Positions 35,401-64,000 of a DNA stretch of 64,000 nt are shown here, one piece after another; within the stretch, counting starts at the first letter, position 1, and each line of letters opens with the position of its first letter. Location of the stretch: positions 62,001 through 126,000 of IMG/VR virus record IMGVR_UViG_2860317346_000001; one strand, written 5' to 3'. Origin of the DNA: an uncultured virus (IMG/VR IMGVR_UViG_2860317346_000001). Lineage: Duplodnaviria; Heunggongvirae; Uroviricota; Caudoviricetes. A program made the translations under genes and the position numbers. Below the pieces are notes generated by a model. That model was not told the DNA's origin. It saw nothing but the letters and a program-made list of their open reading frames with translations, and ran no database searches.

Positions 35401-38400
35401 TGAATCCATCGATTTTGCATCTACGTCGTTACCAACAACCGCTTTAACCAAGTTTATGAAATTTTTGTTTGTTTCGTCGAATGATATATGCGTTCCACCA
35501 GCCGTGAAACTTACACCAAAGTCGTTCAAGAACGATTCAACGCCAGTACCACCGGTACTTGACATTACTTTTATCGTCGAGTTGTTACCATCAACTACAC
35601 GTAATGTATAATCCTTATCGAACGTAATTTTGATTTTGTTCGTGAATTCGGATTTGTTGAATATTTCGGTAAATGTGGATGCGAGTGCGTTGGTTATAGT
35701 AGCTGATTCCAGTCTGGTTACGAAAATCAAGTTACCGAATACATAATTAATGTCTTCAAGTGATGTTTTCATACCACCTTGACGTGTAACGGTCGTTATT
35801 TTCGTTTCGAAATTATGTTTACGTCCAGAATTCAAAGCTTTCATGTAATCTTTATAATTATCGAGTGTAGCGACATTTTTGTCACCTATGTTAAATCTAT
35901 CGATAATACTCTGGATATACACACCCATACCCTTGTTACCACCCAAGGTTGCAAGTTTAGGTGTCATCGTTACGATAGGTAAGCTTGTATTCAGGTTTAC
36001 ACCTTGGTGTTCTAAATTGAAACCGGTAATCATACCATACATCGATTTAGAAATGCTTATAGGCTTTCCGTCGTACTTAATTACGGTCTTATCGCCAATT
36101 ACAGGGGATATACCGTTAGCTATATCAGCTAATGTCAGAGTCCTATTAGAATCAGTGTAGAATTTGTTTTTGTTACAATTGTAGTAACCGTCGTAGTTCT
36201 CAATCGTGAATAACGCCGTATTTGGTATGGATGTTGCCATATCTTTAAGTTTAATACTGGACGTACTAGGTAAGATAGCGTCACATATACCGCGGCCGTG
36301 TTTAGCCATTTCGGTCATGATTTTCTTTTCGTTTTTACGCATAGTAGTGTCATTGTTAACTAAGATTGAATCCTCGATTGTGTGCGCGGTTCCATCCCAG
36401 AACATAACGTTTGCACCAACTTCACCACCTGTTGAAAATGCAGGTGTTACGTTAGGTCGATTACGTGTAGTTGCTAGTTTTATGTACGAACCATAACCAT
36501 CCACAATGTTCAATAATGAACCAATGATAGCTTTTTCGTGTTTAGTCAAGATGTCAATCCTAGGTTGTGAAACGGCACCCATTATACCCGCTGGACCGCT
36601 GTTAATTAAGCCCATAGGTAAAACCGGAATTAAACCATCGTGTAATTTCGATTTATTCAGCAAATCTATTGTGAATTGATTCGAACGTAAAGATAACGCG
36701 TTCACAGAATCCAATTTTACATCAGCGATATTTTCAAACAACTGAGCATAAGTTTTACCATTAATAACGTTACCGCGACCCATAACCGTCTTGTATGCTT
36801 CTTCAACAGCATTCTGCATAGATGCGTTGATACTAGCTACTACACGTTTAGCTTCGTTATCATCTTTAATGGTTCCATTTAAAGCGGATTCGAACTGGTT
36901 TATGTATTTACTTCTTACGTTTTGAACTTCATTCATCAATTCAACGTTGAATCCACGCATTAAATCCATAGCTAACTCTTTGTTAGCACCATCACGTAAT
37001 TTAACGGATAAACTTGGAATCTTTAAGTGTGGTATACGAACTTTATCAGCAACGTCTAGTTTACCGGATAACGTTGTCGGTTTAACATCATCTATATCGT
37101 TAAATACGTTAATCTCAGCACCTTTAGGTACAATGTAAACCATGTTTGACGATGTATCGATGTAAACTTGTTTCGTTTTGGTGTTGATATCGTGACCCTG
37201 CGCTTTCAAGCTTTCAATTAATTTAGCTTCGCTTGTATACGCGTCAAGTCCTAATTGAACTCTCTTACCTTTTGACTTTGAACTTAATGTCGTTGTCATA
37301 ACTTTAGCGTCTTCTGTATATTCAGCGACGCCAAATGTTCGGTTCGTAGGTTCACCCTCAACAATAAACGTTGCACCCATGGCTGACTCTTTGATTTTCT
37401 TAACAGCCGGTTGTGTAATGTCAAACAACGCTTTAACGTTTGCATCACCACTCTTTGTGTCACGTAAATATGAATAGAAATCAACCATTCGGCTATCTTT
37501 GATTTCACCTTTCGAATTCAGAATACCTTTATGTTTCAGGTCTTCCGCGTTATCAGTAATTACACGTTGTAAGGTTTCGTTAAATTTCTTATATTCAGAT
37601 TTTTTGAAATTGTAATGTTGCGAAACATCAAAATCGTATTTACCGCTACGTTTAAACACATCAACTGAATTAGCCAAAACAACAGTATCGAGAACTTTTG
37701 AAACGTATCCCGGAATCTCAACGGCTTCACCTCTAAGGATAAGACCTTCTGCCGCGGAAATCGCTAACAATGTATCGTTAATAACGTCACTTCTGAATAA
37801 CGATTTACTCGAAATACCATAGTACGATGATATGTCATTAATGATTTTATTCAATGTATCTGCATCTTTACTGATTTTAGATAGTGTAGCTGCATCGTAA
37901 TTTAATAACGCCGAGTACGCATTGTTTGTAAGAACACCAGTACGTGCACCGAGGTTAACACCAGTACGTACTAAAGCTACGTGTGAAATTGCCATGTGTA
38001 CGAATCCTTCAGGTTTTCCCCTGAGCTCTTTATACATTTGTTTAAGGCCGTAGTCGTGTTCAGCTATCTCACCGAGTGAAACAGTTTTCACAACGTCTTT
38101 TGGGTTTTTTGCCAAATTACCATTTTTATCATAACCGATGATAACGTCTTTACCTTCACTAACAACGGTTGTGTATGTCGTGAATAGTAATCTACCGAGT
38201 TTGGTTATGTCGGAACCAGCTAAATCGTTCAACGCTTGTTTTACGTCTTTATTTTTCAAGAATTTACGCGCATTTGATTTCAGTGTATTGACGTCAACGT
38301 AATCACCACAGATTTTTGCAAGTGCATCATCCGTTACGCTACCGCCCGATGCGATATATAATGATGACGCCGTACTGTAACGCTTGTACGCTTCTTCTAA

Positions 38401-40677
38401 GTCGTTTAGTGATTTTTTCTCAACGTCTTTGATGTAAGCACCTAAACCGTCTAAACTTTTCTGTATTTTCGTTTTCGGAACTGAATACTTTATGGTTTTA
38501 GCGATTTTACCAAGGTCTACGGTTTTCAAATCATCGAAGTACGCACCTACGGCTAAGAATGATACCTGTTGATTACCCGTACTTGCTACAGTTGGACCCA
38601 TGATTTCTGATAACAACTGTATCGAGTGACCTACGTAATTTATGAGTGTACGTCTACCGATTAATCGAATTAATTCAGTGTCAACACCAGGATGTGTAAA
38701 CGAGTCGATTTTCTTCAACAATACTTTTTTTACAATTTTATCCGGGTCAGCTAACATACCTTCCTCATCTTTCACCATGAGGTCGGATAATTCTTTCGTT
38801 AATTCAAGCTGTAATTTCGCGATAGCCTTATCCAGATTCTTTTGTTCCGCTTCGGTTTTTGAATCGTAGATTTCACCGTAGTAGTTATCATCTTTCAGGG
38901 TTATATGATTGAATGCGATACCTACAACATCCGCGATAAATCGTGACGTGTTCAACTTATTATCCCTAACAGCGTTAGAAACGAATTGATTTACACGTGT
39001 GTGTATTTTACGGGTCGTTGCTGTCGATGCGAGTTCGATTGTCGTGTAATCGACTATACTTATCGGACTGTTTACGCTATTACGAACGGCTTCGATACGC
39101 TTATCAACATCTTTTATTTTTGCAATCGCATTAAATTTACGTTCCATCACCGCATTACCTTTGTGTATCACTAACATATCATCAATAACCGCATCAACGG
39201 TATCAGCGTATATGAAATATGATGGGTTTTCTTTAAGCGATTTAAGTAAATCTTTTTTACGTTTGCTGAGTCTTTTGTAAACACGTACATCTATACCGTA
39301 TTTATTTACAGCTTCTTCTGACGTATCTACTGGTTTTTTAGGTGCTTTCGGGTCAGCAACTTCGTATAAATCCTTGAAGATTAACGCGGTTTGTTGTGTA
39401 ATTTCAGCTTCATGTGCGAAATTAGCTTCATGAGATAAAATACGTAACGAAGCTTCGGCTGAATTCATTTTCTGAATCGAATACCTATTACCAACAAATT
39501 TACCATTTTTGTACTCTTTATCGAGTTTCAGAACTCTAACGTTTTTATACTGCGAAATCGATGGGATAGTCCTAACGGAGTCACCATCGAAATCCGCGTT
39601 TAACGGTTTCAACAATATCGGGTTGATAATTATAGCATTTAAGTTCGGGTCCTGAATGATTTTGATTTTCTGGTCTCTGTAACCGATAGCACCTAAAATC
39701 GGATACCTCATCATAATTGATGAATCACCGTCAATTAAGTGACGTTTACAGTACGCAACCAATTTATCAGCTTTATCAGTAGGAACTGAAAATTCTACAT
39801 TATCTATTGTGAACGTACCGACACCGTTAGATGTGGTATATTTAAACGCTGTGTTTACTTTAAATTTGTAAATATCGTTTTTCTGTTCACGAACCTTGGT
39901 TGTAGCGTTAATTATTTTCGACAGTATTTTGAAGCTAGCGTCGTCACCCATAGCCTTGTACGTATCCCTTAAATCTTCAAGCTCTCTAGCGTTGAATGCT
40001 ACACTTTTCACACAACCTTGCCGTGCACTTTTCGTTGAAATGCTTTTGAAATTAACTGGTATAAGTTGGTGTGTAGCGTGTTTTAACGGGACTAGTATAG
40101 TATCTGGTGGACACAACGGGCTAGGTACAATTGTCGACATCGGAGCAGACTCAGTGGTTTCATTGTGGATTGCACGTTCACCAAGTTGACCTTTAGCCGC
40201 GGTTAAGTAGTTTAGATTATCCATAGAAAATAAATCGTCTGGTGACGGTACCTGACCGTATAAATCCAGTAAATTCTGTGAAGAATTAGCTACTTTTGAC
40301 ATGACCATATTAACATCTATGTCATCGAACGCTTTATCGTTTAGAACGAACATATCAACGTCGGCATGATTCGAAATGATTGACCTAAGTGTATTAACCC
40401 TATTCATTGTAATCGGGTCACCTTTACAACCATTTATGGCGTGTAAAAATTCCCTAAATGTTTCGAGTTGGTATAACTTAGATGATATACCCACCGTGTC
40501 GTTACGTAGAACTAAATAACCTTGGTCAAATTGAATCGAGTAATGAACGGTACCATCCAATGTGGTAGTACCGTAGCTTGATGAAAATTCGAATTTACCA
40601 AAGTCTTTCACGGTAAACATCATATCCGAAATCAATGCAACGTTGACAAACTCTCTGGATATACCAGTTTGTGCCAT
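23470..40677 (-). CDS. giant tape-measure protein fused to two-barrel (beta'/beta-like) RNA polymerase; putative virion RNAP
   Basis: ATG 40677 with GAGGTG RBS, 5,735 aa; RYP..NP..LNADFDGD (39580-39600), bridge-helix-like segment (37905-38004), EDSILVN (36355-36375), KLATLGGNKG (35929-35958); Gly/Ala-rich TMP-like C-terminus (LPVVG...GDYFGAGLEVASG...PGIGTAASIGID). Confidence 0.9.
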   Translation of the reverse strand: MAQTGISREFVNVALISDMMFTVKDFGKFEFSSSYGTTTLDGTVHYSIQFDQGYLVLRNDTVGISSKLYQLETFREFLHAINGCKGDPITMNRVNTLRSIISNHADVDMFVLNDKAFDDIDVNMVMSKVANSSQNLLDLYGQVPSPDDLFSMDNLNYLTAAKGQLGERAIHNETTESAPMSTIVPSPLCPPDTILVPLKHATHQLIPVNFKSISTKSARQGCVKSVAFNARELEDLRDTYKAMGDDASFKILSKIINATTKVREQKNDIYKFKVNTAFKYTTSNGVGTFTIDNVEFSVPTDKADKLVAYCKRHLIDGDSSIMMRYPILGAIGYRDQKIKIIQDPNLNAIIINPILLKPLNADFDGDSVRTIPSISQYKNVRVLKLDKEYKNGKFVGNRYSIQKMNSAEASLRILSHEANFAHEAEITQQTALIFKDLYEVADPKAPKKPVDTSEEAVNKYGIDVRVYKRLSKRKKDLLKSLKENPSYFIYADTVDAVIDDMLVIHKGNAVMERKFNAIAKIKDVDKRIEAVRNSVNSPISIVDYTTIELASTATTRKIHTRVNQFVSNAVRDNKLNTSRFIADVVGIAFNHITLKDDNYYGEIYDSKTEAEQKNLDKAIAKLQLELTKELSDLMVKDEEGMLADPDKIVKKVLLKKIDSFTHPGVDTELIRLIGRRTLINYVGHSIQLLSEIMGPTVASTGNQQVSFLAVGAYFDDLKTVDLGKIAKTIKYSVPKTKIQKSLDGLGAYIKDVEKKSLNDLEEAYKRYSTASSLYIASGGSVTDDALAKICGDYVDVNTLKSNARKFLKNKDVKQALNDLAGSDITKLGRLLFTTYTTVVSEGKDVIIGYDKNGNLAKNPKDVVKTVSLGEIAEHDYGLKQMYKELRGKPEGFVHMAISHVALVRTGVNLGARTGVLTNNAYSALLNYDAATLSKISKDADTLNKIINDISSYYGISSKSLFRSDVINDTLLAISAAEGLILRGEAVEIPGYVSKVLDTVVLANSVDVFKRSGKYDFDVSQHYNFKKSEYKKFNETLQRVITDNAEDLKHKGILNSKGEIKDSRMVDFYSYLRDTKSGDANVKALFDITQPAVKKIKESAMGATFIVEGEPTNRTFGVAEYTEDAKVMTTTLSSKSKGKRVQLGLDAYTSEAKLIESLKAQGHDINTKTKQVYIDTSSNMVYIVPKGAEINVFNDIDDVKPTTLSGKLDVADKVRIPHLKIPSLSVKLRDGANKELAMDLMRGFNVELMNEVQNVRSKYINQFESALNGTIKDDNEAKRVVASINASMQNAVEEAYKTVMGRGNVINGKTYAQLFENIADVKLDSVNALSLRSNQFTIDLLNKSKLHDGLIPVLPMGLINSGPAGIMGAVSQPRIDILTKHEKAIIGSLLNIVDGYGSYIKLATTRNRPNVTPAFSTGGEVGANVMFWDGTAHTIEDSILVNNDTTMRKNEKKIMTEMAKHGRGICDAILPSTSSIKLKDMATSIPNTALFTIENYDGYYNCNKNKFYTDSNRTLTLADIANGISPVIGDKTVIKYDGKPISISKSMYGMITGFNLEHQGVNLNTSLPIVTMTPKLATLGGNKGMGVYIQSIIDRFNIGDKNVATLDNYKDYMKALNSGRKHNFETKITTVTRQGGMKTSLEDINYVFGNLIFVTRLESATITNALASTFTEIFNKSEFTNKIKITFDKDYTLRVVDGNNSTIKVMSSTGGTGVESFLNDFGVSFTAGGTHISFDETNKNFINLVKAVVGNDVDAKSMDSVIQAFGSVMKELYTANRGSTPVFLKNGSMSTKINGLVGLNMSVRLLKQMAEQKFVAGDLDDAANTISQRINAVQGIAEMSVQTLLDSNTKMGKVLYYEEYENGKLVDIKVLGFFGENAKIPAGVMHTCRDGVRRRLLTRDIILNENHAKWMRHLYDALYLSKKSNFKKGEFNLGDDWLELSLMTDSDDFMDSSDAINKIGGDLVQATMKVFHLGGIPGEGTPPDLMRMFFTPTDIMFDGDLKQLTYSGLDKAGKSELRAYLKSALEYALSDESMRERASSEVKFLFNFKTVASELNVILGQMLEQNPAYREYFTAEGRLNDTAKARLFVDLMGPLYRKFYKDENISDVVKFAETISKLYTFELVNKDAFDVVMKFNDKMFLSGVLAGIGFNATNSLNAPGAIRFGMLYQLFDLDGQSIFNHVLDEMFNGTNMKLPENADEKAAFVNDMKKMSKYISTLLYSEVGGMVPNDKRNVHLDSIISKLSELDTPRLNAFDPHRIALDVYGTLFDNIVRDSREASGGQRDTDRIRGALDNLNKTLEGYPERIGDVNNNEFIGSLLDSIRGINGRFQTLFSNDAGISPETRGIIFTQLRNAFGGRIDRSLMDATGEKLNMLLPMALQASGFGKHVMTSSLAGTYKAMMTSFDKNNMASMRDGKMYEVPHWLRYYYANQARNVNKFIGDSRFQFNTQDHSVSGLTASKLLENVPINGELATTNDYLQFRVAQERKMYSARFDTASSASELRGSAWFKDLAFSFKMLTAEFKHLGVSAVELADKYRVSVDLQGTSASTVREQLHEFNKLSDTTGMKFSYTTTEANARRLLQAGAVKEVVDGKSHYKVQGTDNEGNIVVFDNGQKKTLKGLSNRKLLVNDAGNDSYVTVNDYAKSEYVTSLSDDGVNILRGANRMERNKINSDAFKAFVKYAYQDMKFDADDKSFTRALSLDDLRKKWTTNNTSSTFGYDAISISNEELYGSIIGNRRNLDNMILYKMFQADFGHGANALEEFEREMFDSDGKLIKYEDGADTLYGHSRKKISAADMQTNRNMFRLGDENAKRFMFGDDETPGLINKASSLEDMFRMDRLFGVGTAIAGLDKNLSFTERKPNMIAVVSELSRMKNMVAKSTKNISNFGYGFDLTEDDLKKFQQAVLNTSEDATNTDKLRSKLVSLQAGMLDAKSGRVTNDIVNFIKGTTRDGANLNLAHMSTVNADDLMGYLFGFRLENTEKGSKVVPHKVSHSNMVTTYNKGSMYSMIPENLREAAEMSELLTTLNGNKNVSGDASGHFRNTYGNVMDYLLLKGSNYNATKNTVFNKALRNNLRLADVDVSAEQKEKLQKSMAYLKNLGKGEDGVNLFSIANNVMESFGKFDEALQSDTPLSGSVIYSNLMAYVNEFVQSRMDYMVARANVSDETQGHLDTIFSVADELTKGLLTDNKKYENSLKANIRAIEPTTIPAAALATGATSESINEVITTVQSLVNADKLDEAHEYLEGTYEVWSNKLNTHGKGMSEADTATAVKVNHALNALADVHRYGVFKKSGMATLRFNDESGLLSTAPYGRMSRIPAVQIADRYLSAIRNGSTYDAVAFDSVKDSAKGFVTDDTADMNKVARLYSNGKDSQFGSYDEFLNAMSYGEIKDVNGDVLSAGFNKAHFKSEEFSEGTAALFKVLGKKFQDLIATDTNTQKRATYDEKIGMMVDFANELIYAKKNEYYNKDGNVSYDDIEKELGVGKEDIDNITNMLGGDDTANITALQSIIGAVANMAASESIDIRDDGAVAILKNRFDENGNALDDEAIQLEFAGTSTLENVKGTKDKATLINYMSKMKEQLRAFTSSKVDVGGKQVPVLRMTPRDAMKAFNAQIADEFGVDAETINSLGFVSEEQIRAAQKGVALARARGSLQTMPGEYVVSDKHFRPSGDESNYIEEIKRYRKTLPEKVLMKGDMFDSATDVNMMNVMYELNGGDNYDGNDANWVPLISGNHDKGSGRHILIGTVASRGADTVFESHGVGDKKGLPNSEVIKQLREQGFKITGAYVNDNTHATDAGNKFHGANEWKNQTSSHMVFRDRVTGDVTVVDRADAHEYVKTHRDELGDGVEFAGGNTGGALDTAKAVIRTIVKGTPFTETYKNRIPDTDKNFIDLVSNMYDFRGMEYGAFKQLFEKTLNNGDRLRSVESVRGAVAMLKTFSDSSERNLGVESGVYDSFIEMISERKLKYGKLTNDDVKELGLIAIKKGIKDKDARKLMSDEFTNNLYDVNDSLAIHESKNGLAVYNPKSNVGSYQSLDRFKRAIDSASGYITNIFNKDLKSMHSTLNFVFDDLHELAKKNTSELNEEVIKRMEGASGGKDAKLLAGLSMADYLRNNLNRASTASMLETYATKSYLQVQNLDKTSNATQKAVADIVENIFDVATVKERQKEIATEAETALNDDNTSPEARDAYAAITDNVGKLVKVLDTGTRGMVSTYAATLSGNPYATAAMVLELGKMSASAGVAPEAMAKMQDFEGLDKIIGHNAGAYTFNVEGYGVTRVTDKALFSTDWDYAAKMKYDSIQRTMDSLSKIKQYKQIMRNQGVLTQNLPMANLPEYLQNSVLNLVNDNMQEVQRYSMMSVLSHVLNNANVPAPKGIMDSLEYVFDRKFDEPGSTKFEKVAGINEAEVGREQKRIENVKTVMRGMVGSELFGAGADARIQSGPDETANVKADLKRLKGGVGDNKRVSRAEFAQMVRDYSQTKTTNVEDLVLDDNTDTNETMTKKIMKLVHNADGNLSGEDLKTARGHVAKMLGDGFDESTISRKSADDIKTAVGNMGSDAIDEYNKAVRGMSGSFKTEAERLASKIEDGSLSDTEVQDVADIMNETLSNSVKNKVSKWLKTTEFGEIYNSTKAEYKNKGKSETWSGVRGALTATEKTLDLFGGKAMQMSSAMIGPLMGALGMLWSWQSVSGLKSMGRRSEGTLSEQLLKSQGFEVPYYGASGLDMARASGQASATLAKQGSAAEYAALVRADPTIFTVMNTQGVDEQAKLMEWYAKYASADAGQTVYLSGEYNTDSVDTLRSLYPNLGDGELEKLFAAQQGTKARAIVDENFGLESAALAEPMDAIKLNTGLMVDFLAALYNSVVTIVSLTGTNVETNRLLDYSREIEAFYQGKLDTDVITVAQGNSNVYEAAMGQMQGLYIRAAEAMGIAYTSIENVDTDNGGTTAASTGSNFKELGAILKQVEMGGRAGYAMQMVEASVSLIGIAQLGFARLAGLGAKSVWLLERIGAYLATGKRAVFGAAANTFNTLTGGNLNSGGNVAKTSMWQKTKNVAASGLGMLTGVLPFSKVENIEAKNINVKKQIDPIAAGTTINKNEPVSSVAAKERYSKKQVNAGANTTVVPIPTQESTTKKSWKARIFGDSKKQTTTTPHIDYGDDLSSERKFYKRQLGGYVATTALSMIIPSLLGESLAQYGIGDMAFSGMMMGSQLGMMSSSKYGALKGAATGFAAMNTVDQVTNNGLSLGSVVSSAGLAAMVAGGSGKAGKFGLPLYAVGMLANLGGSLLNGPSSDDTNNTAGLVPIKNFGALSSDFVELSTTPSTSDGGIVNNWNNSNNYGKAGMVASGILGIGGLYSAYKTVKGLISGKTGGTGGTGGTGGSQTLNKTSKILGNIGNIGKVFQKPAAMVGGLLEGPLGKIGSVFEKPLGGIGKIFQKPTAVIGNLLGDPLGKAGNAVAGVFDDFYQNGVGKGVQNLAGKTGIGKRLANAVDGATTGSKLGKGLRQKLLMGGMAGLLALTTVNASSTEDTESNTLNETLTSARSQTGDAYMGLAAGGLLSKIKSVRNLASGVLGKDTAKAIGKVGLKSLPVVGAVFNGIGAVQRGMEGDYFGAGLEVASGIADFIPGIGTAASIGIDSYLAARDVMKTKDQRVAQTNALGGYVKQTIMAPVYGAKALWDTGKNVANAAGSAFDVKNLITTSVTSLVDALKNSNGYLKNIFEVLEDVSTYMKTLVILQSTSSKF

Positions 40678-40687
40678 TACTACACCT

Positions 40688-42901
40688 CTAAGTTTTCGTA
40701 AGGACGAAATCTTCAACAGACTTCACGACGAATCTACCATCGCTAATATTTAAATAATCCGTAAATTCGAATGCGTAAATATTATCGAAGAATAAAAAAT
40801 CAGCACGTGGTTTGTCTATAACACTAGCACCTTTCACGATAATAACTGGATTACCGACAATAATTGGGTTATCAACGGTGACTGTATCACCACTGACACT
40901 GATTTCAGGTTTCGTGTATAAATGAGGAATAACGTCAAAATTAATATTCATTTCGGTCGTGTTTTTCAAATCAAATGTTTTTTCACAAACAAACACATCC
41001 CGGCTACCACGTACGTAATACTCGTATCTAACGGTAACCCTATTCCCAAATCTCATAGGTATGTTTATATAACTTACCATCGACGCGAATAGCGAGCCGT
41101 TAAGGTACCAATTACCGTGGGTTATGTCATTTGAATTTGGATGTGAAACGTGTACTTCTCTACCATTAAAGTTTGACAACATACCATGATTACACGTTGA
41201 AAACATTTCAATACTGGTCCTGATTTCTTGTTCACCTATGTAAAGTGTAACATCGGCTTTGTACTTACCAGTCGTATAAACCTCAATAAATTCCGTTTTA
41301 TTCTTCGGAACCATTTTAACGACGTTATCGGTTTTGATAATCATGTCACATGGCGCAGTTATGTAAAACCCATCCGTTGCTTCACGTACACCAAAGTTAT
41401 ATGACCCGAAATCAACATTAACCATTTTATAAAGATGTATTTTATCCTCATAGGTTAACCAAACGTTACACATACCGGCTTTCGTAAATCTAACAACGTA
41501 TGCGGTGTTATCGATATTCTCAACGATTTCGAGGTCACCAGTGATTACGTATTCACCTTCAAATGAATCAGCTGAATTTATCCGCATCATAGTTTTTTTA
41601 CCAAACACAGGTATTTCGTCGAATACGATGTCAACAAATGATGTTTTAGTAGTTTCATCAAGAACGTTAACATCAAACGAACCAACATATTTGTTATTAC
41701 TAACTTTATAAACGTTACACGTGAATTTACCACCTCGATTAAATGTATATTTGTTGATTTCATCACGTTTAAGCGAAATAGTATCGTTACCTGATGTTTC
41801 AATGATAACATCATCAAAAGCTAACAATTCGATGTATTCCCCTTTTTCAATTGTTGTATTGGTTAAAAACTGCAGTAATATACGTTCAGTGGACGCGTAC
41901 AGTTCCGTGTATTTTCGAATTGTGAGGTTTAACGGTGATACTTTAACGATTGAATATATCCTATACAACCCTGGTTCTGTATTAAATGTCACGTTGGAAC
42001 CATACATCGAAGTCGTTAATGTTTCCGTTATACCATCAACCTTGTAAACTTCAGTAATACTTGTACAATCGTTCGTACGGTTACATTTTTCCCATATAAC
42101 TTTATAATTCAACATACCAAGCTTCTGAATTGATATATCGGTCATAATATCGGTTAAACACGTATAATAAAACAATTCAACTTTACCAACGTAAATGGAC
42201 AGCATTTTATACTTGTCATCCGGTGCAAACTCCATTACAACATATCGGTCTTCGTGGTCATAACTATCAACCATATCGGGTGAAGATACGTATACAGCTT
42301 CCGTGTTATTTTCATCAGCGGTTATATTCATTTCGGACGAATCTATAACTATGTAATTACCGTATTGGTATAACTTGATTGTATCAGATACGCTTTTGTT
42401 ACAACAAAACGTTCTGACGATATTTTCGGATACGACCGTTCCACCTTTTTTGATTAGCTTAGATACCGCTCTAAATTGTACATTTTCATCGGTTATCGAT
42501 ACACTTTGTAGAACACCATCGTATATTTCGTAAATGCCATCAGTTACCGACACATAATACGTTTCGTATTTCTTATCATTAACATAATCGTATACGAAAT
42601 CGAGTATATCCGATCTAGTGACCGTAGATATACTAAACCCGTACGTTGGTTCGAGTGGTTTGTTGTTATCTATTAACATCGGCGACTTTACAGTATAAAC
42701 CTCACCATCTTTTAAGGTGTATTCACAATACGGCGTTCCGCTAATTGACGCGGATGCAGCCTTCAGGGTTGGAGCTTCTTCGACGTTGTTATTATTTTCG
42801 AACTGAGCTTCACCTGGTAAATATATCGTCGTATCGACGTCTTTATACAACTCACCCTCGCCATCAACGGCATATTTGTATAATTGTAACGTTACAGCCA
42901 T
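40688..42901 (-). CDS. putative tail-tip/baseplate protein with Ig-like repeats
   Basis: 737 aa, beta-rich, repeated FxxxGxY/F-x-V Ig-like strands; next to TMP. Confidence 0.55.
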   Translation of the reverse strand: MAVTLQLYKYAVDGEGELYKDVDTTIYLPGEAQFENNNNVEEAPTLKAASASISGTPYCEYTLKDGEVYTVKSPMLIDNNKPLEPTYGFSISTVTRSDILDFVYDYVNDKKYETYYVSVTDGIYEIYDGVLQSVSITDENVQFRAVSKLIKKGGTVVSENIVRTFCCNKSVSDTIKLYQYGNYIVIDSSEMNITADENNTEAVYVSSPDMVDSYDHEDRYVVMEFAPDDKYKMLSIYVGKVELFYYTCLTDIMTDISIQKLGMLNYKVIWEKCNRTNDCTSITEVYKVDGITETLTTSMYGSNVTFNTEPGLYRIYSIVKVSPLNLTIRKYTELYASTERILLQFLTNTTIEKGEYIELLAFDDVIIETSGNDTISLKRDEINKYTFNRGGKFTCNVYKVSNNKYVGSFDVNVLDETTKTSFVDIVFDEIPVFGKKTMMRINSADSFEGEYVITGDLEIVENIDNTAYVVRFTKAGMCNVWLTYEDKIHLYKMVNVDFGSYNFGVREATDGFYITAPCDMIIKTDNVVKMVPKNKTEFIEVYTTGKYKADVTLYIGEQEIRTSIEMFSTCNHGMLSNFNGREVHVSHPNSNDITHGNWYLNGSLFASMVSYINIPMRFGNRVTVRYEYYVRGSRDVFVCEKTFDLKNTTEMNINFDVIPHLYTKPEISVSGDTVTVDNPIIVGNPVIIVKGASVIDKPRADFLFFDNIYAFEFTDYLNISDGRFVVKSVEDFVLTKT

Positions 42902-61047: not shown

Positions 61048-61080
61048 ATTAACATCACCGAAACGCGATAAATGGTCTGT

Positions 61081-61097
61081 CCTTTATATGCGTTATC
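61081..61097 (-). promoter_or_regulatory. archaeal-type TATA promoter of terS
   Basis: GATAACGCATATAAAGG on - strand, ~35 nt upstream of ATG. Confidence 0.5.
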
Positions 61098-61135
61098 CTA
61101 AAAACGTTAACACAGGTATACGTAACATGCCTACA

Positions 61136-61183
61136 CACAGACATACAGGGGTACATGGATACAGGTACACAGCGCTACATGAC
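61136..61183 (+). repeat. six tandem 8-nt units, consensus YACAK-N3
   Basis: cacagaca tacagggg tacatgga tacaggta cacagcgc tacatgac. Confidence 0.7.
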
Positions 61184-61347
61184 ATGGGGTAAAAAGGGTA
61201 TGCTCGATAATTACATCGGCGCGATGACGATATAATTAAAGTATTTGAGAATTTTATAAATTTTCCGAAAAAATGCTATATTATATATATTATACTTTTA
61301 GAGTGCAAAAACCGCGACATTTTTTGACAGGGGTAGGGTGGGTATAC

Positions 61348-61399
61348 CATCATGGGTATCCGAATACAGATGGGATACATGAGTTACACTATAGTTAAG
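61348..61399 (+). promoter_or_regulatory. conserved early element copy 1 (putative viral RNAP promoter)
   Basis: CATCATgggTATCCGAATACA-N16-TACACT. Confidence 0.7.
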
Positions 61400-61423
61400 T
61401 AGAAACCTGTAGGTGATATCTCT

Positions 61424-61645
61424 ATGGATACCTTAGTAAACTTAGCTCACACAGCAAACACCACACTATTAGCGGAAGCTAATATTCGTGGGAAACTATA
61501 CCCTGGGTTCGATAAAGCGGATGGGGTTTGGTATGAACTCCAAGACGTAACAGATGACGCTTTCGGTTTAATCGAAAGTGTGCAAGCCGCAGTTTGTAAA
61601 GAAATTGCGGATTACTTCGGTGAAGAACCGATGTATAACTTCTAA
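61424..61645 (+). CDS. small early protein
   Basis: 73 aa, AGGTGAT RBS, T-tract after stop. Confidence 0.75.
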   Translation: MDTLVNLAHTANTTLLAEANIRGKLYPGFDKADGVWYELQDVTDDAFGLIESVQAAVCKEIADYFGEEPMYNF

Positions 61646-61688
61646 TTTGTTATTTTTTTCTTTTATTGATTATATCTATAAAAAAACT

Positions 61689-61746
61689 CATCATCACGAT
61701 ATACGAATACAGATTGGATTAGTTTGACTACACTGTTTTAGAGTGG
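61689..61746 (+). promoter_or_regulatory. conserved early element copy 2
   Basis: CATCATCACGATATACGAATACA-N17-TACACT. Confidence 0.8.
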
Positions 61747-61772
61747 AATAAAAACTCTATAGGTGATGTGTA

Positions 61773-61991
61773 ATGATTAACAAAATATCTAATACTATCG
61801 TAAAATTCTTCAACCAGTTAGACGCTGGTAAGAAGGGCAGAACGCCATACATGGTGTTCAAACATGGAACCATCTTGGAGGACTTAGATGGTAGATACTT
61901 TATCGTCAGAAATGACACCTACAAAGTTGTAGGTAAGTGCTCACCTGAGAACCTTAACGGTCTTATAGAACGAGCGTTAATGCTCGAATAA
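61773..61991 (+). CDS. small early protein
   Basis: 72 aa, AGGTGAT RBS, T-tract after stop. Confidence 0.75.
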   Translation: MINKISNTIVKFFNQLDAGKKGRTPYMVFKHGTILEDLDGRYFIVRNDTYKVVGKCSPENLNGLIERALMLE

Positions 61992-62040
61992 TTCTATTTT
62001 ATTTTTTTCTAACCGTAATGGTTTGTAAATAAAAAAAAAG

Positions 62041-62094
62041 CATCATCACGTTATACGAATACAATTTGCAGATATTAGATACACTGTAGTTAAG
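62041..62094 (+). promoter_or_regulatory. conserved early element copy 3
   Basis: CATCATCACGTTATACGAATACA-N16-TACACT. Confidence 0.8.
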
Positions 62095-62117
62095 CGATAA
62101 CCATGAGGTGATGTACA

Positions 62118-62336
62118 ATGTTTGTACCAGTAAATAGAATGTTTAACACGACCGAAGAATCCGTTGATGCGGCTATGGAGGTGTTACACATACTATCTCA
62201 CGACCTTGCCGACCTTGATAAACCTGAAAACAAATACTTGTTGGATGTGTTGTATAAAAGGTTTGGTGTGATGGTGTGTCCGAATTGTGGTGCTACCATC
62301 CGTGAAATACACGGGTGTAAGACCTGTAGGGTCTAA
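62118..62336 (+). CDS. small early Zn-ribbon protein
   Basis: CPNC-x9-CKTC; GAGGTGAT RBS. Confidence 0.75.
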   Translation: MFVPVNRMFNTTEESVDAAMEVLHILSHDLADLDKPENKYLLDVLYKRFGVMVCPNCGATIREIHGCKTCRV

Positions 62337-62384
62337 CCCTAATTCTTTTTTTTATTTTTATAGATTTCATTTATAAAAAAAAAT

Positions 62385-62442
62385 CATCATCACGATATAC
62401 GAATACAATTTGCGATACATTCGTTACACTATTTTAGAGTGG
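62385..62442 (+). promoter_or_regulatory. conserved early element copy 4
   Basis: CATCATCACGATATACGAATACA-N17-TACACT. Confidence 0.8.
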
Positions 62443-62526
62443 GTAAAAAAGTAGGTTATGGTTTGTCTGTTGCAGAGACAACTCCTGTAGCTTACCGCTT
62501 TATACCAACGTATTCAGGTGGTCTGA

Positions 62527-62727
62527 ATGGATTTGAATATTGCGAAAGCAAACATGAATAAGCACGGTAACGGTCAAGCTGCTGTGCGGATAGAAGGAAA
62601 GTTGTATGTTGTCAATGTGACTTCATACAATGATTTGACTATCAAAATTAATCGTATTTTAACTAGCTTAGGTTTACCTAAGTTAGATGACGATTACACG
62701 CGAGAAGGTGATATAATAATCGCCTAA
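62527..62727 (+). CDS. small early protein
   Basis: 66 aa, AGGTGG RBS, T-tract after stop. Confidence 0.72.
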   Translation: MDLNIAKANMNKHGNGQAAVRIEGKLYVVNVTSYNDLTIKINRILTSLGLPKLDDDYTREGDIIIA

Positions 62728-62773
62728 ATATCTTTTCTTTCTTTTATTTTATATAAATCTATATAAAAAAAAT

Positions 62774-62825
62774 CATCATCACGATATCCGAATACAGCTC
62801 GCCACGTAGCTCTCCACACTATTAT
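62774..62825 (+). promoter_or_regulatory. conserved early element copy 5
   Basis: CATCATCACGATATCCGAATACA-N18-CACACT. Confidence 0.8.
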
Positions 62826-62854
62826 ACGGTGAACAAAAAACAATTGGTGAAACT

Positions 62855-63262
62855 ATGGCATTCGGTATCGGTACAACGACAGAAAACGCAGCAACAGGAA
62901 ACAACTTCGGGTGGGTAGAAACAAAATACCCACTTGCATTAACAATATTCATTAACAAACCGATGGGAGACAAAGAAAAAGTTGTCGTCAAAATCATAGG
63001 CGACAAAACGAAATTCGACGTCGGTGGAACGTTCGCGAAAGGATATTCGTCAGCAGCATTCAAAGCGAACATGGAACGTGTTAAAACATTCCTAAACAAC
63101 ATAGCTGGTCAGGAAGAACAAGCAGTAAACTATCTTCTTGAGAACCATTACATTAAACTCGTACAGCAAGGCCCTGGAAACAAAGCCTTCTGGTACGTGT
63201 ACAAGCCTACAGAGAAGTTACTTCTCGAAGGCAACCTCGGTGTAGACGAAGGTCTACACTAA
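62855..63262 (+). CDS. early protein, unknown function
   Basis: 135 aa, GGTGA RBS, T-tract after stop. Confidence 0.78.
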   Translation: MAFGIGTTTENAATGNNFGWVETKYPLALTIFINKPMGDKEKVVVKIIGDKTKFDVGGTFAKGYSSAAFKANMERVKTFLNNIAGQEEQAVNYLLENHYIKLVQQGPGNKAFWYVYKPTEKLLLEGNLGVDEGLH

Positions 63263-63362
63263 ACATTTTATTTTTTTACAAAACAACAACCAAACAAACA
63301 CATCATACGCACAATCATCATAAACGTATTTAACACGACGCGTTATGTACAAAGGTATACAC

Positions 63363-63399
63363 GGGAATGGGGCGAAGCCCCATTCCCTTTCTTATTTTT
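63363..63399 (+). terminator. hairpin-type intrinsic terminator
   Basis: GGGAATGGGGC-GAA-GCCCCATTCCC (perfect 11-bp stem) followed by TTTCTTATTTTT. Confidence 0.8.
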
Positions 63400-63652
63400 A
63401 TAGGCTAATCACCCGCCATATTAGGAATATAATTTTCACCTGACACTATTTTATGATGGTAATAAATGTTATTTTATTACCTATTCTTTATCAATCAATC
63501 ACGACTGCTGCGCTGGTTTGGTGAACGTCATTTAAAGCTGCGCTTTAAATAGAAACGAAGCTGAAACAGTAGGGCACGTGTGCGGTTGAACGAGAATACG
63601 AATCAAAACAAACCACATTAAAACAAACAGTACAAACAAACAGGTGAACAAT

Positions 63653-64000
63653 ATGTTTTCAAACCTCTTCGGAATGGACAATACAGGTAAAGACAATGGA
63701 GCAGCAGTAGCTGCGGACAATAACGATAATATCAAACGTACCTATGACGCAATGGTACAAGCAACTGGAAACGTTGCTGTACACCATAAATATGCGGATT
63801 TCAGTGAGAAACCTCTCGGCTGGAACTTCGGTATCTCAATGGACGAATCAAAATTAGAACACCAAAGAGTCATCAAGTCATTCGACTGTATGGCACACAA
63901 AATAGTAGACAAAAGGTACACCTCGTGTGCCGTAATGCACGAAACAGGTCAGTGGATTGGCCGAGAAATCGCAAACGGTAACATAAAACCAGAAACGATG
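63653..64000 (+). CDS. ORF running off the window end (not in ORF track)
   Basis: AGGTGA RBS, ATG 63653, open for 116 codons (MFSNLFGMDNTGKD...). Confidence 0.75.
   Translation, partial: MFSNLFGMDNTGKDNGAAVAADNNDNIKRTYDAMVQATGNVAVHHKYADFSEKPLGWNFGISMDESKLEHQRVIKSFDCMAHKIVDKRYTSCAVMHETGQWIGREIANGNIKPETM

What the first reader, a model, noticed from the sequence alone, without database searches (positions are those of the whole stretch)
61348..63262. Five promoter-ORF-terminator cassettes with a bipartite motif: candidate promoters of the virion RNAP
Seen: five copies (61348, 61689, 62041, 62385, 62774) of CATCATCACGATATMCGAATACA-N16/17/16/17/18-YACACTRT. Copy 1 is degenerate, and copies 2-5 are preceded by an A-tract. 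Each lies upstream of one small ORF that has its own RBS and ends in a T-tract. The spacer is variable in sequence but nearly constant in length, and YACACT resembles a bacterial -10 hexamer rather than an archaeal TATA box. I did not see this motif elsewhere in the window. Inference: these are pre-early promoters read by the injected TMP-RNAP, driving host-takeover or anti-defence genes. The repeats could also act as recombination points for swapping cassettes.
Basis: partly seen in the sequence, partly recalled or inferred. Interest (0 to 1): 0.86.

Follow-up and report, generated by a model that had tools for sequence, protein, structure and literature searches.

The report
Five terminator-promoter cassettes, probable viral-polymerase promoters
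Five small genes of a large, probably archaeal, tailed virus each carry the same two-part DNA signal found nowhere else in the virus, which is most likely the start signal for the virus's own injected RNA polymerase, although reading by the host's polymerase cannot yet be excluded.

Summary
CGAATACA-N16/17/16/17/18-YACACTRT occurs five times on the + strand (0.01 expected) and nowhere else in the 174,953-bp virus record. Copies 2-5 share a 23-mer at 96% identity. The spacer (53%) and the five ORFs are unrelated in sequence. Each unit runs T-tract, A-tract, 23-mer, fixed spacer, box, SD (ribosome-binding site), small ORF. The array starts the rightward arm, next to the structural arm, which holds a 5,748-aa ORF with an NADFDGD RNA-polymerase motif. 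A second DFDGD (beta'-like) gene lies 1.6 kb downstream.

The layout matches the mapped pre-early units of Thermus phage P23-45, which are read by a tape-measure-fused virion polymerase. The motif sequence does not match.

My best reading (0.45) is composite terminator-promoter units read by the virion polymerase. The main rival (0.30) is a host archaeal TBP/TFB promoter: a TATA-like tract ends 24-25 nt before the invariant CA, as in halovirus HF2 intergenic repeats.

There is no RNA data, and no relative of the virus or motif was found. The proposed host-takeover or anti-defence role is untested. Earlier notes from this scan report similar cassette arrays on other DNA; I did not check them.

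The parts
61219..61311 (+). Decayed partial unit upstream of cassette 1: a 23-mer-like stretch at 61224-61250 and TTTTAGAGTG at 61296-61311, embedded in TATA-rich DNA
   Evidence: the repeat finder families D10 (70%) and D6
61348..61392 (+). Copy 1 of the bipartite motif. The upstream half is degenerate; CGAATACA-N16-TACACTAT is intact. No A-tract.
61424..61645 (+). Cassette 1 ORF, 73 aa, SD TAGGTGAT; followed by a T-rich tract at 61646-61667
   Evidence: no family hit
61680..61736 (+). Copy 2: A7 tract 61680-61686, 23-mer 61689-61711, 17-nt spacer, box TACACTGT 61729-61736
61773..61991 (+). Cassette 2 ORF, 72 aa; T-rich tract 61992-62009
62031..62087 (+). Copy 3: A9 tract 62031-62039, 23-mer 62041-62063 (1 mismatch), 16-nt spacer, box 62080-62087
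62118..62336 (+). Cassette 3 ORF, 72 aa, with CxxC...CxxC near its C-terminus; weak hairpin 62327-62341, then T-rich tract 62344-62359
62375..62432 (+). Copy 4: A9 tract 62375-62383, 23-mer 62385-62407 (exact), 17-nt spacer, box 62425-62432
62439..62727 (+). Cassette 4 coding part. It is atypical: the aligned SD is mutated (GGTTAT), with a 10-codon mini-ORF or a 40-aa GTG ORF (62439-62561). The 66-aa ORF (62527-62727) has its own AGGTGG. T-rich tract 62732-62750.
62765..62822 (+). Copy 5: A8 tract 62765-62772, 23-mer 62774-62796 (1 mismatch), 18-nt spacer, box CACACTAT 62815-62822
62855..63262 (+). Cassette 5 ORF, 135 aa; T-rich tract 63266-63278
   Evidence: only itself in 5.8 billion proteins
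63363..63397 (+). Strong hairpin (11 pairs, 8 G-C) plus T-tract that closes the array; homologous to the hairpin/T-tract after cassette 3
   Evidence: family D5, 77%
63405..63469 (+). Decayed sixth unit: ATCAC...GGAATATA, only a 10-nt spacer, then ACACTATTTTA. It lies about 200 nt before the next ORF.
   Evidence: family D3, 74%; not among the top scores of the weight-matrix scan
63644..64000 (+). Start of the next same-strand gene block (260-aa ORF running off the window). This block holds the 549-aa DFDGD beta'-like gene at record 126885-128534.
23470..40716 (-). 5,748-aa ORF of the structural arm with NADFDGD at residues 373-379: the candidate virion (tape-measure-type) RNA polymerase
   Evidence: Pfam RNA_pol_Rpb1_2 E 7.7e-6, 26.7 bits vs cut-off 25.3
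61048..61423 (.). 376-bp divergent intergenic region between the structural arm and the cassette array; the cumulative GC-skew minimum of the record falls here

Best explanation
Each ~115-bp intergenic unit is a composite transcription stop-and-start signal. An oligo-T tract ends the previous transcript, and a dedicated two-block promoter starts the next one. The promoter is the near-invariant 23-mer, a 16-18-nt spacer of free sequence, and YACACTRT with about 10 semi-conserved bases. Each small gene is therefore its own unit.

The promoter class is private to these five genes. It is most likely read by the RNA-polymerase domain at the N-terminus of the 5,748-aa tail protein, delivered with the DNA. 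That would make these the first genes expressed, by analogy with Thermus phage P23-45.

Shown: the motif, its uniqueness, the block-wise conservation, the cassette anatomy, and the presence of polymerase motifs. Inferred: that the blocks are a promoter, which polymerase reads it, that the giant protein is packaged and injected, and the timing.

Predicted 5' ends, if the box is the proximal element, are purines 6-8 nt after YACACT: about 61397, 61741, 62092, 62437 and 62827.
For: Uniqueness and excess over chance:
-.

Selection on two blocks only:
- The 23-mer is 0.96 identical and the box 0.85.
- The spacer is 0.53 and the box-to-start stretch 0.52, against an unrelated-DNA baseline of 0.52.
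- Spacer length is held at 16-18 nt.

Unrelated ORFs between homologous units:
- (best E 0.22).
- All copies are on the coding strand, 37-43 nt before an SD-led start in 4 of 5.
- T-rich tracts follow all 5 ORFs. Genome-wide, 19 of 64 ORF ends have such a tract, against a 4.6% background.

Polymerase genes:
- A candidate virion polymerase sits in the structural arm.
- A second DFDGD gene lies 1.6 kb downstream on the same strand, and a beta-like GDK..HGQKG gene lies elsewhere. The virus therefore needs private promoter classes.
- This is the only long shared motif found in 60 upstream regions.

Precedents:
- The mapped P23-45 pre-early region has the same architecture. TSSs at 66, 346, 579, 883, 1283, 1657 and 1982 each sit 6-49 nt after the previous terminator, in front of small ORFs, before the non-virion polymerase gene (text of PMC10770324).
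- Virion polymerases of phiKZ/AR9-type phages use extended, highly conserved promoters with the start 6 nt downstream (PMC5312081).

Copy 1:
- It keeps CGAATACA-N16-TACACTAT without any A/T tract.
Against: - There is no transcript data: the only public run holding this DNA is a DNA run.
- The full motif is absent before the second-polymerase block. Only a decayed unit with a 10-nt spacer is there. The beta-like gene lies about 60 kb away. A simple virion-to-non-virion relay is therefore not shown.
- A TATA-like tract ends 24-25 nt before the invariant CA of the 23-mer in copies 2-5, which is the archaeal TBP/TFB geometry. HF2 class I repeats show that such multi-block repeats can be host promoters.
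- Polymerase identity rests on one barrel motif just above Pfam's cut-off. The second barrel was not found in the giant ORF. Packaging is inferred from gene position only.
- No relatives exist, so there is no co-occurrence test.
- The motif is not AT-rich and is unlike the P23-45 motif (40 matches vs 42.3 expected).
- The phi14:2 virion polymerase has no common promoter motif at all.
Confidence: 0.45

Rival explanations
1. These are host archaeal RNAP promoters. The TATA-like end of the A/T tract (TATAAAAAAA, TTTATAAAAAAAAA) recruits TBP/TFB, and transcription starts within or just after the invariant CGAATACA. The 23-mer is then the proximal promoter/initiator plus an operator for a viral or host regulator (it contains the direct repeat CGATATA-CGAATACA). 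YACACTRT lies in a ~65-nt leader.
For: - The A-tract ends 24-25 nt before the terminal CA of the 23-mer in 4 of 4 copies that have an A-tract.
- HF2 class I intergenic repeats (58 bp, three conserved blocks, genome-unique) have a TATA beginning at -26 and a TSS inside the conserved gamma block. They work from a reporter plasmid (PMC8707807, sections 3.1-3.3).
- Reviews state that no sequenced archaeal virus encodes RNAP subunits and that their promoters carry TATA/BRE (PMC9501531 passage; PMC5123050 passage).
- Archaeal signals in this virus: the EarA and histone-fold families ring only in archaeal control genomes.
- Oligo-T tracts without hairpins are found genome-wide.
- The record encodes several wHTH/HTH proteins that could bind an operator.
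Against: - Copy 1 has no A/T tract, yet it keeps both blocks and a normal SD-led ORF.
- No purine-rich BRE is evident upstream of the TATA-like tracts (reading).
- No comparable TATA-plus-block unit stands before other genes of the virus.
- This virus, unlike HF2, carries polymerase genes.
- The fixed 16-18-nt spacing between two blocks has no obvious role in a leader. The leaders show no RNA structure beyond shuffles (z -0.46 to +1.21).
Confidence: 0.3
2. The motif is a promoter of the virus's second, non-virion polymerase (549-aa DFDGD subunit and partners). The cassettes would then be an early or middle class rather than the very first genes.
For: A second beta'-like gene with DFDGD and a beta-like gene exist. 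In P23-45 the non-virion enzyme has its own distinct motif.
Against: Known non-virion phage multisubunit polymerases use short motifs: AACA-N6-TA/G in AR9 and TATG in phiKZ (PMC5312081). They serve many genes, whereas here only five tiny genes carry the motif. The polymerase gene sits downstream of the array, not upstream.
Confidence: 0.12
3. The repeats are not primarily transcription signals. They could be recombination sites for cassette exchange, structured RNA elements (ribozyme, leader, sRNA), or N4-type DNA hairpin promoters.
For: Unrelated ORFs sit between homologous ~115-bp direct repeats, which are the longest DNA repeats of the record. T4-type PeSL terminator/promoter motifs do mediate such shuffling (PMC4122927, abstract). 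CAUCAUCAC could pair with the GGUGAUG of the SD in copies 2 and 3.
Against: - No Rfam family matches at E<=1 apart from one chance lncRNA hit inside an ORF.
- RNA folds are no better than shuffles.
- No conserved DNA hairpin on either strand of the motif (z -1.2 to +0.9).
- The SD pairing is absent in copies 1, 4 and 5.
- Block-wise conservation with a free spacer of fixed length is not what homologous recombination alone would maintain.
- No integrase was found among the ORFs scanned.
- A recombination role can coexist with the promoter role but cannot be tested without relatives.
Confidence: 0.08

Closest known systems
Pre-early promoter/terminator units of Thermus phage P23-45, read by the tape-measure-fused virion RNAP gp96 (PMC10770324; main-text passages and Supplementary Data 1 seen)
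   Same: Both have a giant tail protein with an N-terminal two-barrel RNAP motif. Both have a tandem same-strand array of small ORFs, each with its own conserved promoter placed a few tens of nt after the previous terminator (unit length 233-400 bp there, 344-389 bp here). Both have a second polymerase gene just downstream.
   Different: The P23-45 motif is a single AT-rich block (..ttATTCCTTTA) ending at the TSS. Here there are two blocks with a 16-18-nt spacer, no sequence likeness and only 5 copies against 14. The P23-45 terminators are a 26-bp GC hairpin motif; here they are T-tracts, mostly without a hairpin. The giant proteins share only the DPBB motif (E 0.12). The host here is probably archaeal. 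Nothing is mapped here.
Virion-RNAP early promoters of phiKZ/AR9-type jumbo phages (PMC5312081, passages seen)
   Same: Both are an extended, nearly invariant promoter class private to early genes in a virus with virion and non-virion multisubunit-type RNAPs. The start is expected a fixed few nt downstream of the conserved block.
   Different: AR9's motif is AT-rich and single-block (AAATATATATTAT-N6-G), with 41 copies spread over the genome. Here the motif has the genome's own composition (9 G/C of 23) and two blocks, with five clustered copies.
Class I intergenic repeats of halovirus HF2 (PMC8707807, abstract and section 3 part 1 seen)
   Same: Both are from an archaeal tailed virus. Both are genome-unique intergenic repeats of ~58 bp or more with several conserved blocks separated by variable positions, and both contain an AT-rich tract.
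   Different: HF2 has no polymerase genes. Its TATA and TSS were mapped, and the repeats work with host machinery. Its repeats head long operons across the genome, not a tandem array of one-gene cassettes.
PeSL composite terminator/early-promoter motifs of T4-type phages (PMC4122927, abstract and outline seen; PMC2839356, search listing only)
   Same: Both are small composite terminator-promoter units that flank small unrelated ORFs of unknown function. They are proposed points of cassette exchange.
   Different: PeSLs are a stem-loop terminator plus a host sigma-70 early promoter in bacteria. Here the terminator is an oligo-T tract and the promoter matches no host consensus. Exchange is not testable here.
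Phage N4 virion-RNAP hairpin promoters (PMC4496689, search listing and abstract only; promoter anatomy recalled)
   Same: Both are few in number and clustered where early genes lie, and are read by an injected giant polymerase.
   Different: N4 promoters are DNA hairpins read by a T7-like single-subunit domain. No conserved hairpin exists here.

Membership tests
P23-45-type pre-early units of a tape-measure-fused virion RNAP | Virus encodes a two-barrel RNAP domain at the N-terminus of a giant tail/tape-measure protein | tested here: inconclusive
   NADFDGD at residues 373-379 of a 5,748-aa ORF in the structural arm. Pfam Rpb1_2 scores 26.7 bits against a 25.3 cut-off. There is a weak PDB hit to P23-45 TMP 8h2n (E 0.12). 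The second barrel was not detected. Tape-measure identity rests on size and position only. There are no homologues.
P23-45-type pre-early units of a tape-measure-fused virion RNAP | Tandem same-strand small-ORF units, each with the same upstream motif and its own terminator | tested here: met
   Five units spaced 343-389 bp apart. T-rich tracts follow all five ORFs. Compare the P23-45 table.
P23-45-type pre-early units of a tape-measure-fused virion RNAP | Sequence likeness to the P23-45 AT-rich promoter or its 26-bp terminator motif | tested here: not met
   TTATTCCTTTA with up to 2 mismatches gives 40 matches against 42.3 expected, and none heads a cassette. Only 2 of 5 cassette terminators have even a weak hairpin.
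P23-45-type pre-early units of a tape-measure-fused virion RNAP | Units include or precede the non-virion RNAP gene and lie at the genome end that enters first | tested here: inconclusive
   A DFDGD gene lies 1.6 kb downstream, but it lies behind a strong terminator and only a decayed unit. The physical genome ends are unknown, because the record is a fragment of a 207-kb contig.
P23-45-type pre-early units of a tape-measure-fused virion RNAP | TSS mapped at the motif; transcription independent of new protein synthesis and of host RNAP; polymerase bound there | not testable with these tools
   No RNA run holds this DNA.
Archaeal TBP/TFB (BRE-TATA-Inr) promoter | AT-rich TATA box centred about 26 nt upstream of a pyrimidine-purine start | tested here: inconclusive
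   The geometry is met for copies 2-5 if the start is the CA ending the 23-mer (A-tract end to CA is 24-25 nt). It is not met for copy 1, which has no A/T tract. If the start were at YACACT, the TATA window would be ATACGAAT, a poor TATA.
Archaeal TBP/TFB (BRE-TATA-Inr) promoter | Purine-rich BRE directly upstream of the TATA box | tested here: not met
   The bases upstream of the TATA-like tracts are T-rich. The BRE consensus is recalled, not taken from a call.
Bacterial sigma-70 promoter | TTGACA and TATAAT hexamers 16-18 nt apart | tested here: not met
   The spacing fits (16-18). But AATACA matches 3 of 6 and TACACT 4 of 6. The consensus scan calls none of the five, and finds 10 sites in the region against 11.2 expected. 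The host is probably archaeal.
N4-type hairpin promoter | Conserved short DNA hairpin in the promoter | tested here: not met
   DNA folds of both strands of all five copies give z -1.2 to +0.9, with no shared stem.
PeSL-type composite terminator/promoter cassette | Conserved terminator+promoter unit flanking unrelated small ORFs | tested here: met
PeSL-type composite terminator/promoter cassette | Stem-loop terminator plus host early promoter; exchange of cassettes between related genomes at the units | tested here: inconclusive
   The components differ (oligo-T tract, non-host-like motif). Exchange is untestable because no related genome was found.
Known structured RNA (ribozyme, riboswitch, leader) | Match to an Rfam family or a fold better than shuffles | tested here: not met

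The most novel reading that the evidence does not exclude
This is an archaeal tailed virus that brings its own RNA polymerase into the cell on its tail protein and starts infection from a private two-block promoter class, independent of TBP/TFB. That would be the first virus-polymerase promoter known in Archaea, with five natural copies, two decayed copies and natural spacer-length variants ready for in vitro testing.
Probability: 0.3. Interest if true: 0.85.

Novelty: new variant of a known kind. Interest (0 to 1): 0.62.

Why it matters
Reviews read here state that no sequenced archaeal virus encodes an RNA-polymerase subunit and that archaeal viral promoters use host TATA/BRE elements (PMC9501531; PMC5123050). 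This record carries two DFDGD genes and a beta-like gene, together with archaeal-type histone and EarA genes. The cassette motif is its only strong candidate for a private promoter.

If the reading holds, the unit gives a defined template (23-mer, spacer, box) for testing a new two-barrel polymerase. It also makes directly testable whether archaeal viruses can transcribe without host factors. If the host-promoter reading holds instead, it is a second, HF2-like case of multi-block viral promoters in Archaea, which is ordinary but useful.

Tried and rejected
**Searches for relatives**
All listed hits were single matches, so it was uninformative.
- The 20-mer scan gave one hit, inside a coding region of an unrelated prophage-like contig.
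- The metagenome scan with a 19-mer gave 42 single hits. None of the 42 has the CATC prefix or a YACACT within 40 nt.
- Relatives sought by protein all came back empty: the 284-aa structural protein, TerL and NrdD in named genomes, the N-terminus of the giant ORF (only the ~60-residue barrel motif matches, best E 8e-6), the 549-aa gene, and ORF5.
- blastn of the region against phage records found no match.

**Expression data**
- No RNA holder is listed. The single holder is one DNA run that may be the source. Read laying was not used, because contigs cannot show 5' ends.

**Function of the small ORFs**
- The single-sequence fold of ORF5 had pLDDT 39, so no fold search was made.
- PADLOC, Pfam and PHROGs found nothing for the small ORFs.

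**Other motifs and models considered**
- A k-mer and Gibbs search for other promoter classes in 55 other upstream regions found only T-tracts, TATA-like words and a weak ACGT word, with no positional preference.
- The idea that CAUCAUCAC sequesters the SD was rejected.
- An integron-like attC reading was considered from memory only and dropped, because no integrase and no hairpin were found.
- Complex prediction was not used, because no protein-pair claim is made.
- Supplementary figures of PMC10770324 (motif logos) were not read. Only Supplementary Data 1 was read.
Full report
**Observation**

The window is bases 62001-126000 of a 174,953-bp IMG/VR virus record (38% G+C). The region 61348-63262 holds five + strand copies of CGAATACA-N16/17/16/17/18-YACACTRT. 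Shuffles give 0.01 matches on average, and 0 of 100 shuffles reach five.

The longer upstream element CATCATCACGATATACGAATACA is exact or one-off in copies 2-5. In copy 1 it is degenerate. The whole record has these five matches and no others on either strand.

Weight matrices built from the copies separate them cleanly from everything else. The boxes score 17.6-23.3 against a next best of 15.3. The 23-mers score 39.5-40.9 against a next best of 14.2.

There is one deviation. Cassette 4 has a mutated SD at the usual place and a mini-ORF there. Its 66-aa ORF starts 101 nt after the box.

**Anatomy**

A self-comparison of the record shows that the cassette intergenic regions are its longest DNA repeats. 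Copy 2 against copy 4 aligns over 115 bp at 80%. The repeated unit runs from the T-rich tract after one ORF to about 20 nt past the box (families D1-D4).

Conservation within the unit is block-wise:

| Segment | Identity |
|---|---|
| 23-mer | 0.96 |
| YACACTRT | 0.85 |
| Next 10 nt | 0.63 |
| Spacer | 0.53 |
| Box-to-start stretch | 0.52 |
| Unrelated ORF DNA (baseline) | 0.52 |

The spacer is free in sequence but held at 16-18 nt. The five ORFs (73, 72, 72, 66 and 135 aa) are unrelated to each other and to any Pfam, PHROG or PADLOC family. ORF5 has no relative among 5.8 billion proteins, and its single-sequence fold failed (pLDDT 39).

Decayed units flank the array. One lies upstream of copy 1 (61219-61311). 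The other lies after a strong hairpin terminator (63363-63397). It has a degenerate 23-mer, a 10-nt spacer and ACACTATTTTA (63405-63469; families D3, D5, D6, D10).

The T-tract and A-tract of each intergenic region form a weak AT-only palindrome (I16 and I25, z -1.6 to -3.1).

T-rich tracts after ORFs are a genome-wide habit. 19 of 64 ORF ends with a gap have at least 8 T in 10 nt, against a 4.6% background, and this includes late structural genes.

**Context**

The array sits at a divergent junction. To its left is a minus-strand block (21361-61047). This block holds the large terminase, a scaffold-like protein and a 5,748-aa ORF.

The N-terminal part of that ORF carries NADFDGD. It passes Pfam's RNA_pol_Rpb1_2 cut-off narrowly (26.7 vs 25.3 bits). 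Its best solved-structure matches are archaeal Rpo1N and, weakly, the P23-45 tape measure. Its C-terminal part hits a peptidase PHROG.

Beyond the ~60-residue barrel motif, it has no detectable relative in 1.84 billion representatives or in the word-indexed 5.8 billion. An Atlas feature search gives only leads to phage Rpb1_2 clusters (0.87-0.88).

To the right, 1.6 kb after cassette 5 and on the same strand, a 549-aa protein carries DFDGD. A 282-aa protein with the beta-subunit signature GDK..HGQKG lies at record 61160-62008. The virus therefore has at least two beta'-like genes, one of them in the virion module.

**Host**

The EarA-like and histone-fold proteins of the record belong to families that ring only in the archaeal members of 14 control genomes. 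The SD is overwhelmingly AGGTGAT rather than GGAGG. An anaerobic ribonucleotide reductase is present. I take the host to be archaeal with about 70% confidence. No named relative could be found.

**What it most likely is**

Two conserved blocks at a fixed distance, on the coding strand, 37-43 nt before SD-led starts, each unit preceded by a T-tract: this is promoter-terminator anatomy. The alternatives that do not involve transcription fare badly:

- No Rfam family matches.
- RNA folds are no better than shuffles.
- No conserved DNA hairpin of the N4 kind is present.

The open question is which polymerase reads the units, and where transcription starts.

For the virion polymerase, the best argument is the match to the only mapped system of this kind. 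In P23-45, Supplementary Data 1 lists pre-early TSSs at 66, 346, 579, 883, 1283, 1657 and 1982. Each sits 6-49 nt after the previous terminator and in front of a small ORF, ahead of the non-virion polymerase gene. ChIP assigns these units to the tape-measure-fused gp96. The present array has the same unit size, orientation and neighbourhood.

Virion polymerases of jumbo phages likewise use long, nearly invariant promoters. No other long motif exists in this genome's 60 upstream regions.

**What speaks against it**

- The motif shares no sequence with that of P23-45 and is not AT-rich.
- The second-polymerase block is preceded only by a decayed unit behind a strong terminator.
- The beta-like gene is far away.
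- The phi14:2 virion polymerase has no common promoter motif.
- Most important, in copies 2-5 a TATA-like tract ends 24-25 nt before the invariant CA of the 23-mer. That is the geometry of an archaeal TBP/TFB promoter.

Halovirus HF2 shows that genome-unique, multi-block intergenic repeats of an archaeal tailed virus can be host promoters. There, the TATA begins at -26 and the TSS lies inside a conserved block.

Copy 1 lacks any A/T tract but keeps both blocks, which argues mildly for the motif itself being the promoter. However, copy 1 may be read from the TATA-rich DNA further upstream, or it may simply be decaying.

**Verdict**

- 'Composite terminator-promoter units private to five small genes' is well supported.
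- 'Read by the injected polymerase' is the best single reading at about 0.45.
- A host TBP/TFB promoter stands at 0.30, the second viral polymerase at 0.12, and other readings at 0.08.
- The proposed gene functions are untested.
- The recombination idea fits the anatomy (compare PeSLs) but cannot be tested without relatives.

Earlier notes of this scan describe similar cassette arrays tied to phage polymerases on other DNA, one in a methanogen virus. I did not check them, and they are not evidence here. The two start-site predictions, 6-8 nt after YACACT versus within CGAATACA, lie about 30 nt apart, so a single 5'-end mapping experiment would decide between them.

Noticed in passing
window 23470-40716 (-); G000:C1:126885-128534 (+); G000:C1:61160-62008 (+): A probably archaeal tailed virus with two DFDGD (beta'-like) genes, one inside a 5,748-aa structural-arm ORF, and a beta-like GDK..HGQKG gene. 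Reviews read here say no sequenced archaeal virus encodes RNAP subunits. The giant protein has no relative beyond the barrel motif.
   Followed up: partly
G000:C1:137816-138445 and 162891-163169: A virus-encoded histone-fold protein (209 aa, CBFD_NFYB_HMF E 6e-14) and an EarA-like winged-helix protein (E 3e-22). Both families ring only in archaeal control genomes.
   Followed up: partly
G000:C1:30700-31599: A 299-aa protein joining a guanylate kinase domain to a Tad2-like (Thoeris anti-defence 2) domain.
   Followed up: no
window 61048-61423: The 376-bp divergent intergenic region has G-rich runs, repeated GGTA/TACA words and TATA-rich DNA. The cumulative GC-skew minimum of the record falls here. 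It is a candidate origin or packaging end.
   Followed up: no
window 61646-61690, 61992-62042, 62337-62386, 62728-62775: In each inter-cassette spacer the T-tract and the A-tract form an AT-only palindrome (DNA fold -3.1 to -4.9 kcal/mol, z -1.6 to -3.1). Its role is unknown: a bidirectional stop, an easily melted region, or a TATA box.
   Followed up: partly
window 62439-62561: Cassette 4 has lost the usual SD (GGTTAT) and carries a 10-codon mini-ORF or a 40-aa GTG ORF overlapping the start of the 66-aa ORF. It may be a decaying or re-used cassette.
   Followed up: no
window 62118-62336: Cassette 3's 72-aa product ends in CPNCG...CKTC, a zinc-ribbon-like pair of CxxC motifs.
   Followed up: no
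G000:C1:147592-148467 and 148489-149100: Nicotinamide/nicotinate phosphoribosyltransferase is split into two adjacent ORFs.
   Followed up: no
G000:C1:165246-166055; whole record: A ParA-type ATPase is present, and no integrase was found among the ORFs scanned, although IMG/VR classes the record as a provirus cut from a 207,348-bp contig.
   Followed up: no
G000:C1:33160-46362 (-): A second minus-strand block holds an RCC1-repeat protein (1,107 aa), Kelch-repeat and DUF2341 proteins, probably fibres or host-recognition proteins.
   Followed up: no
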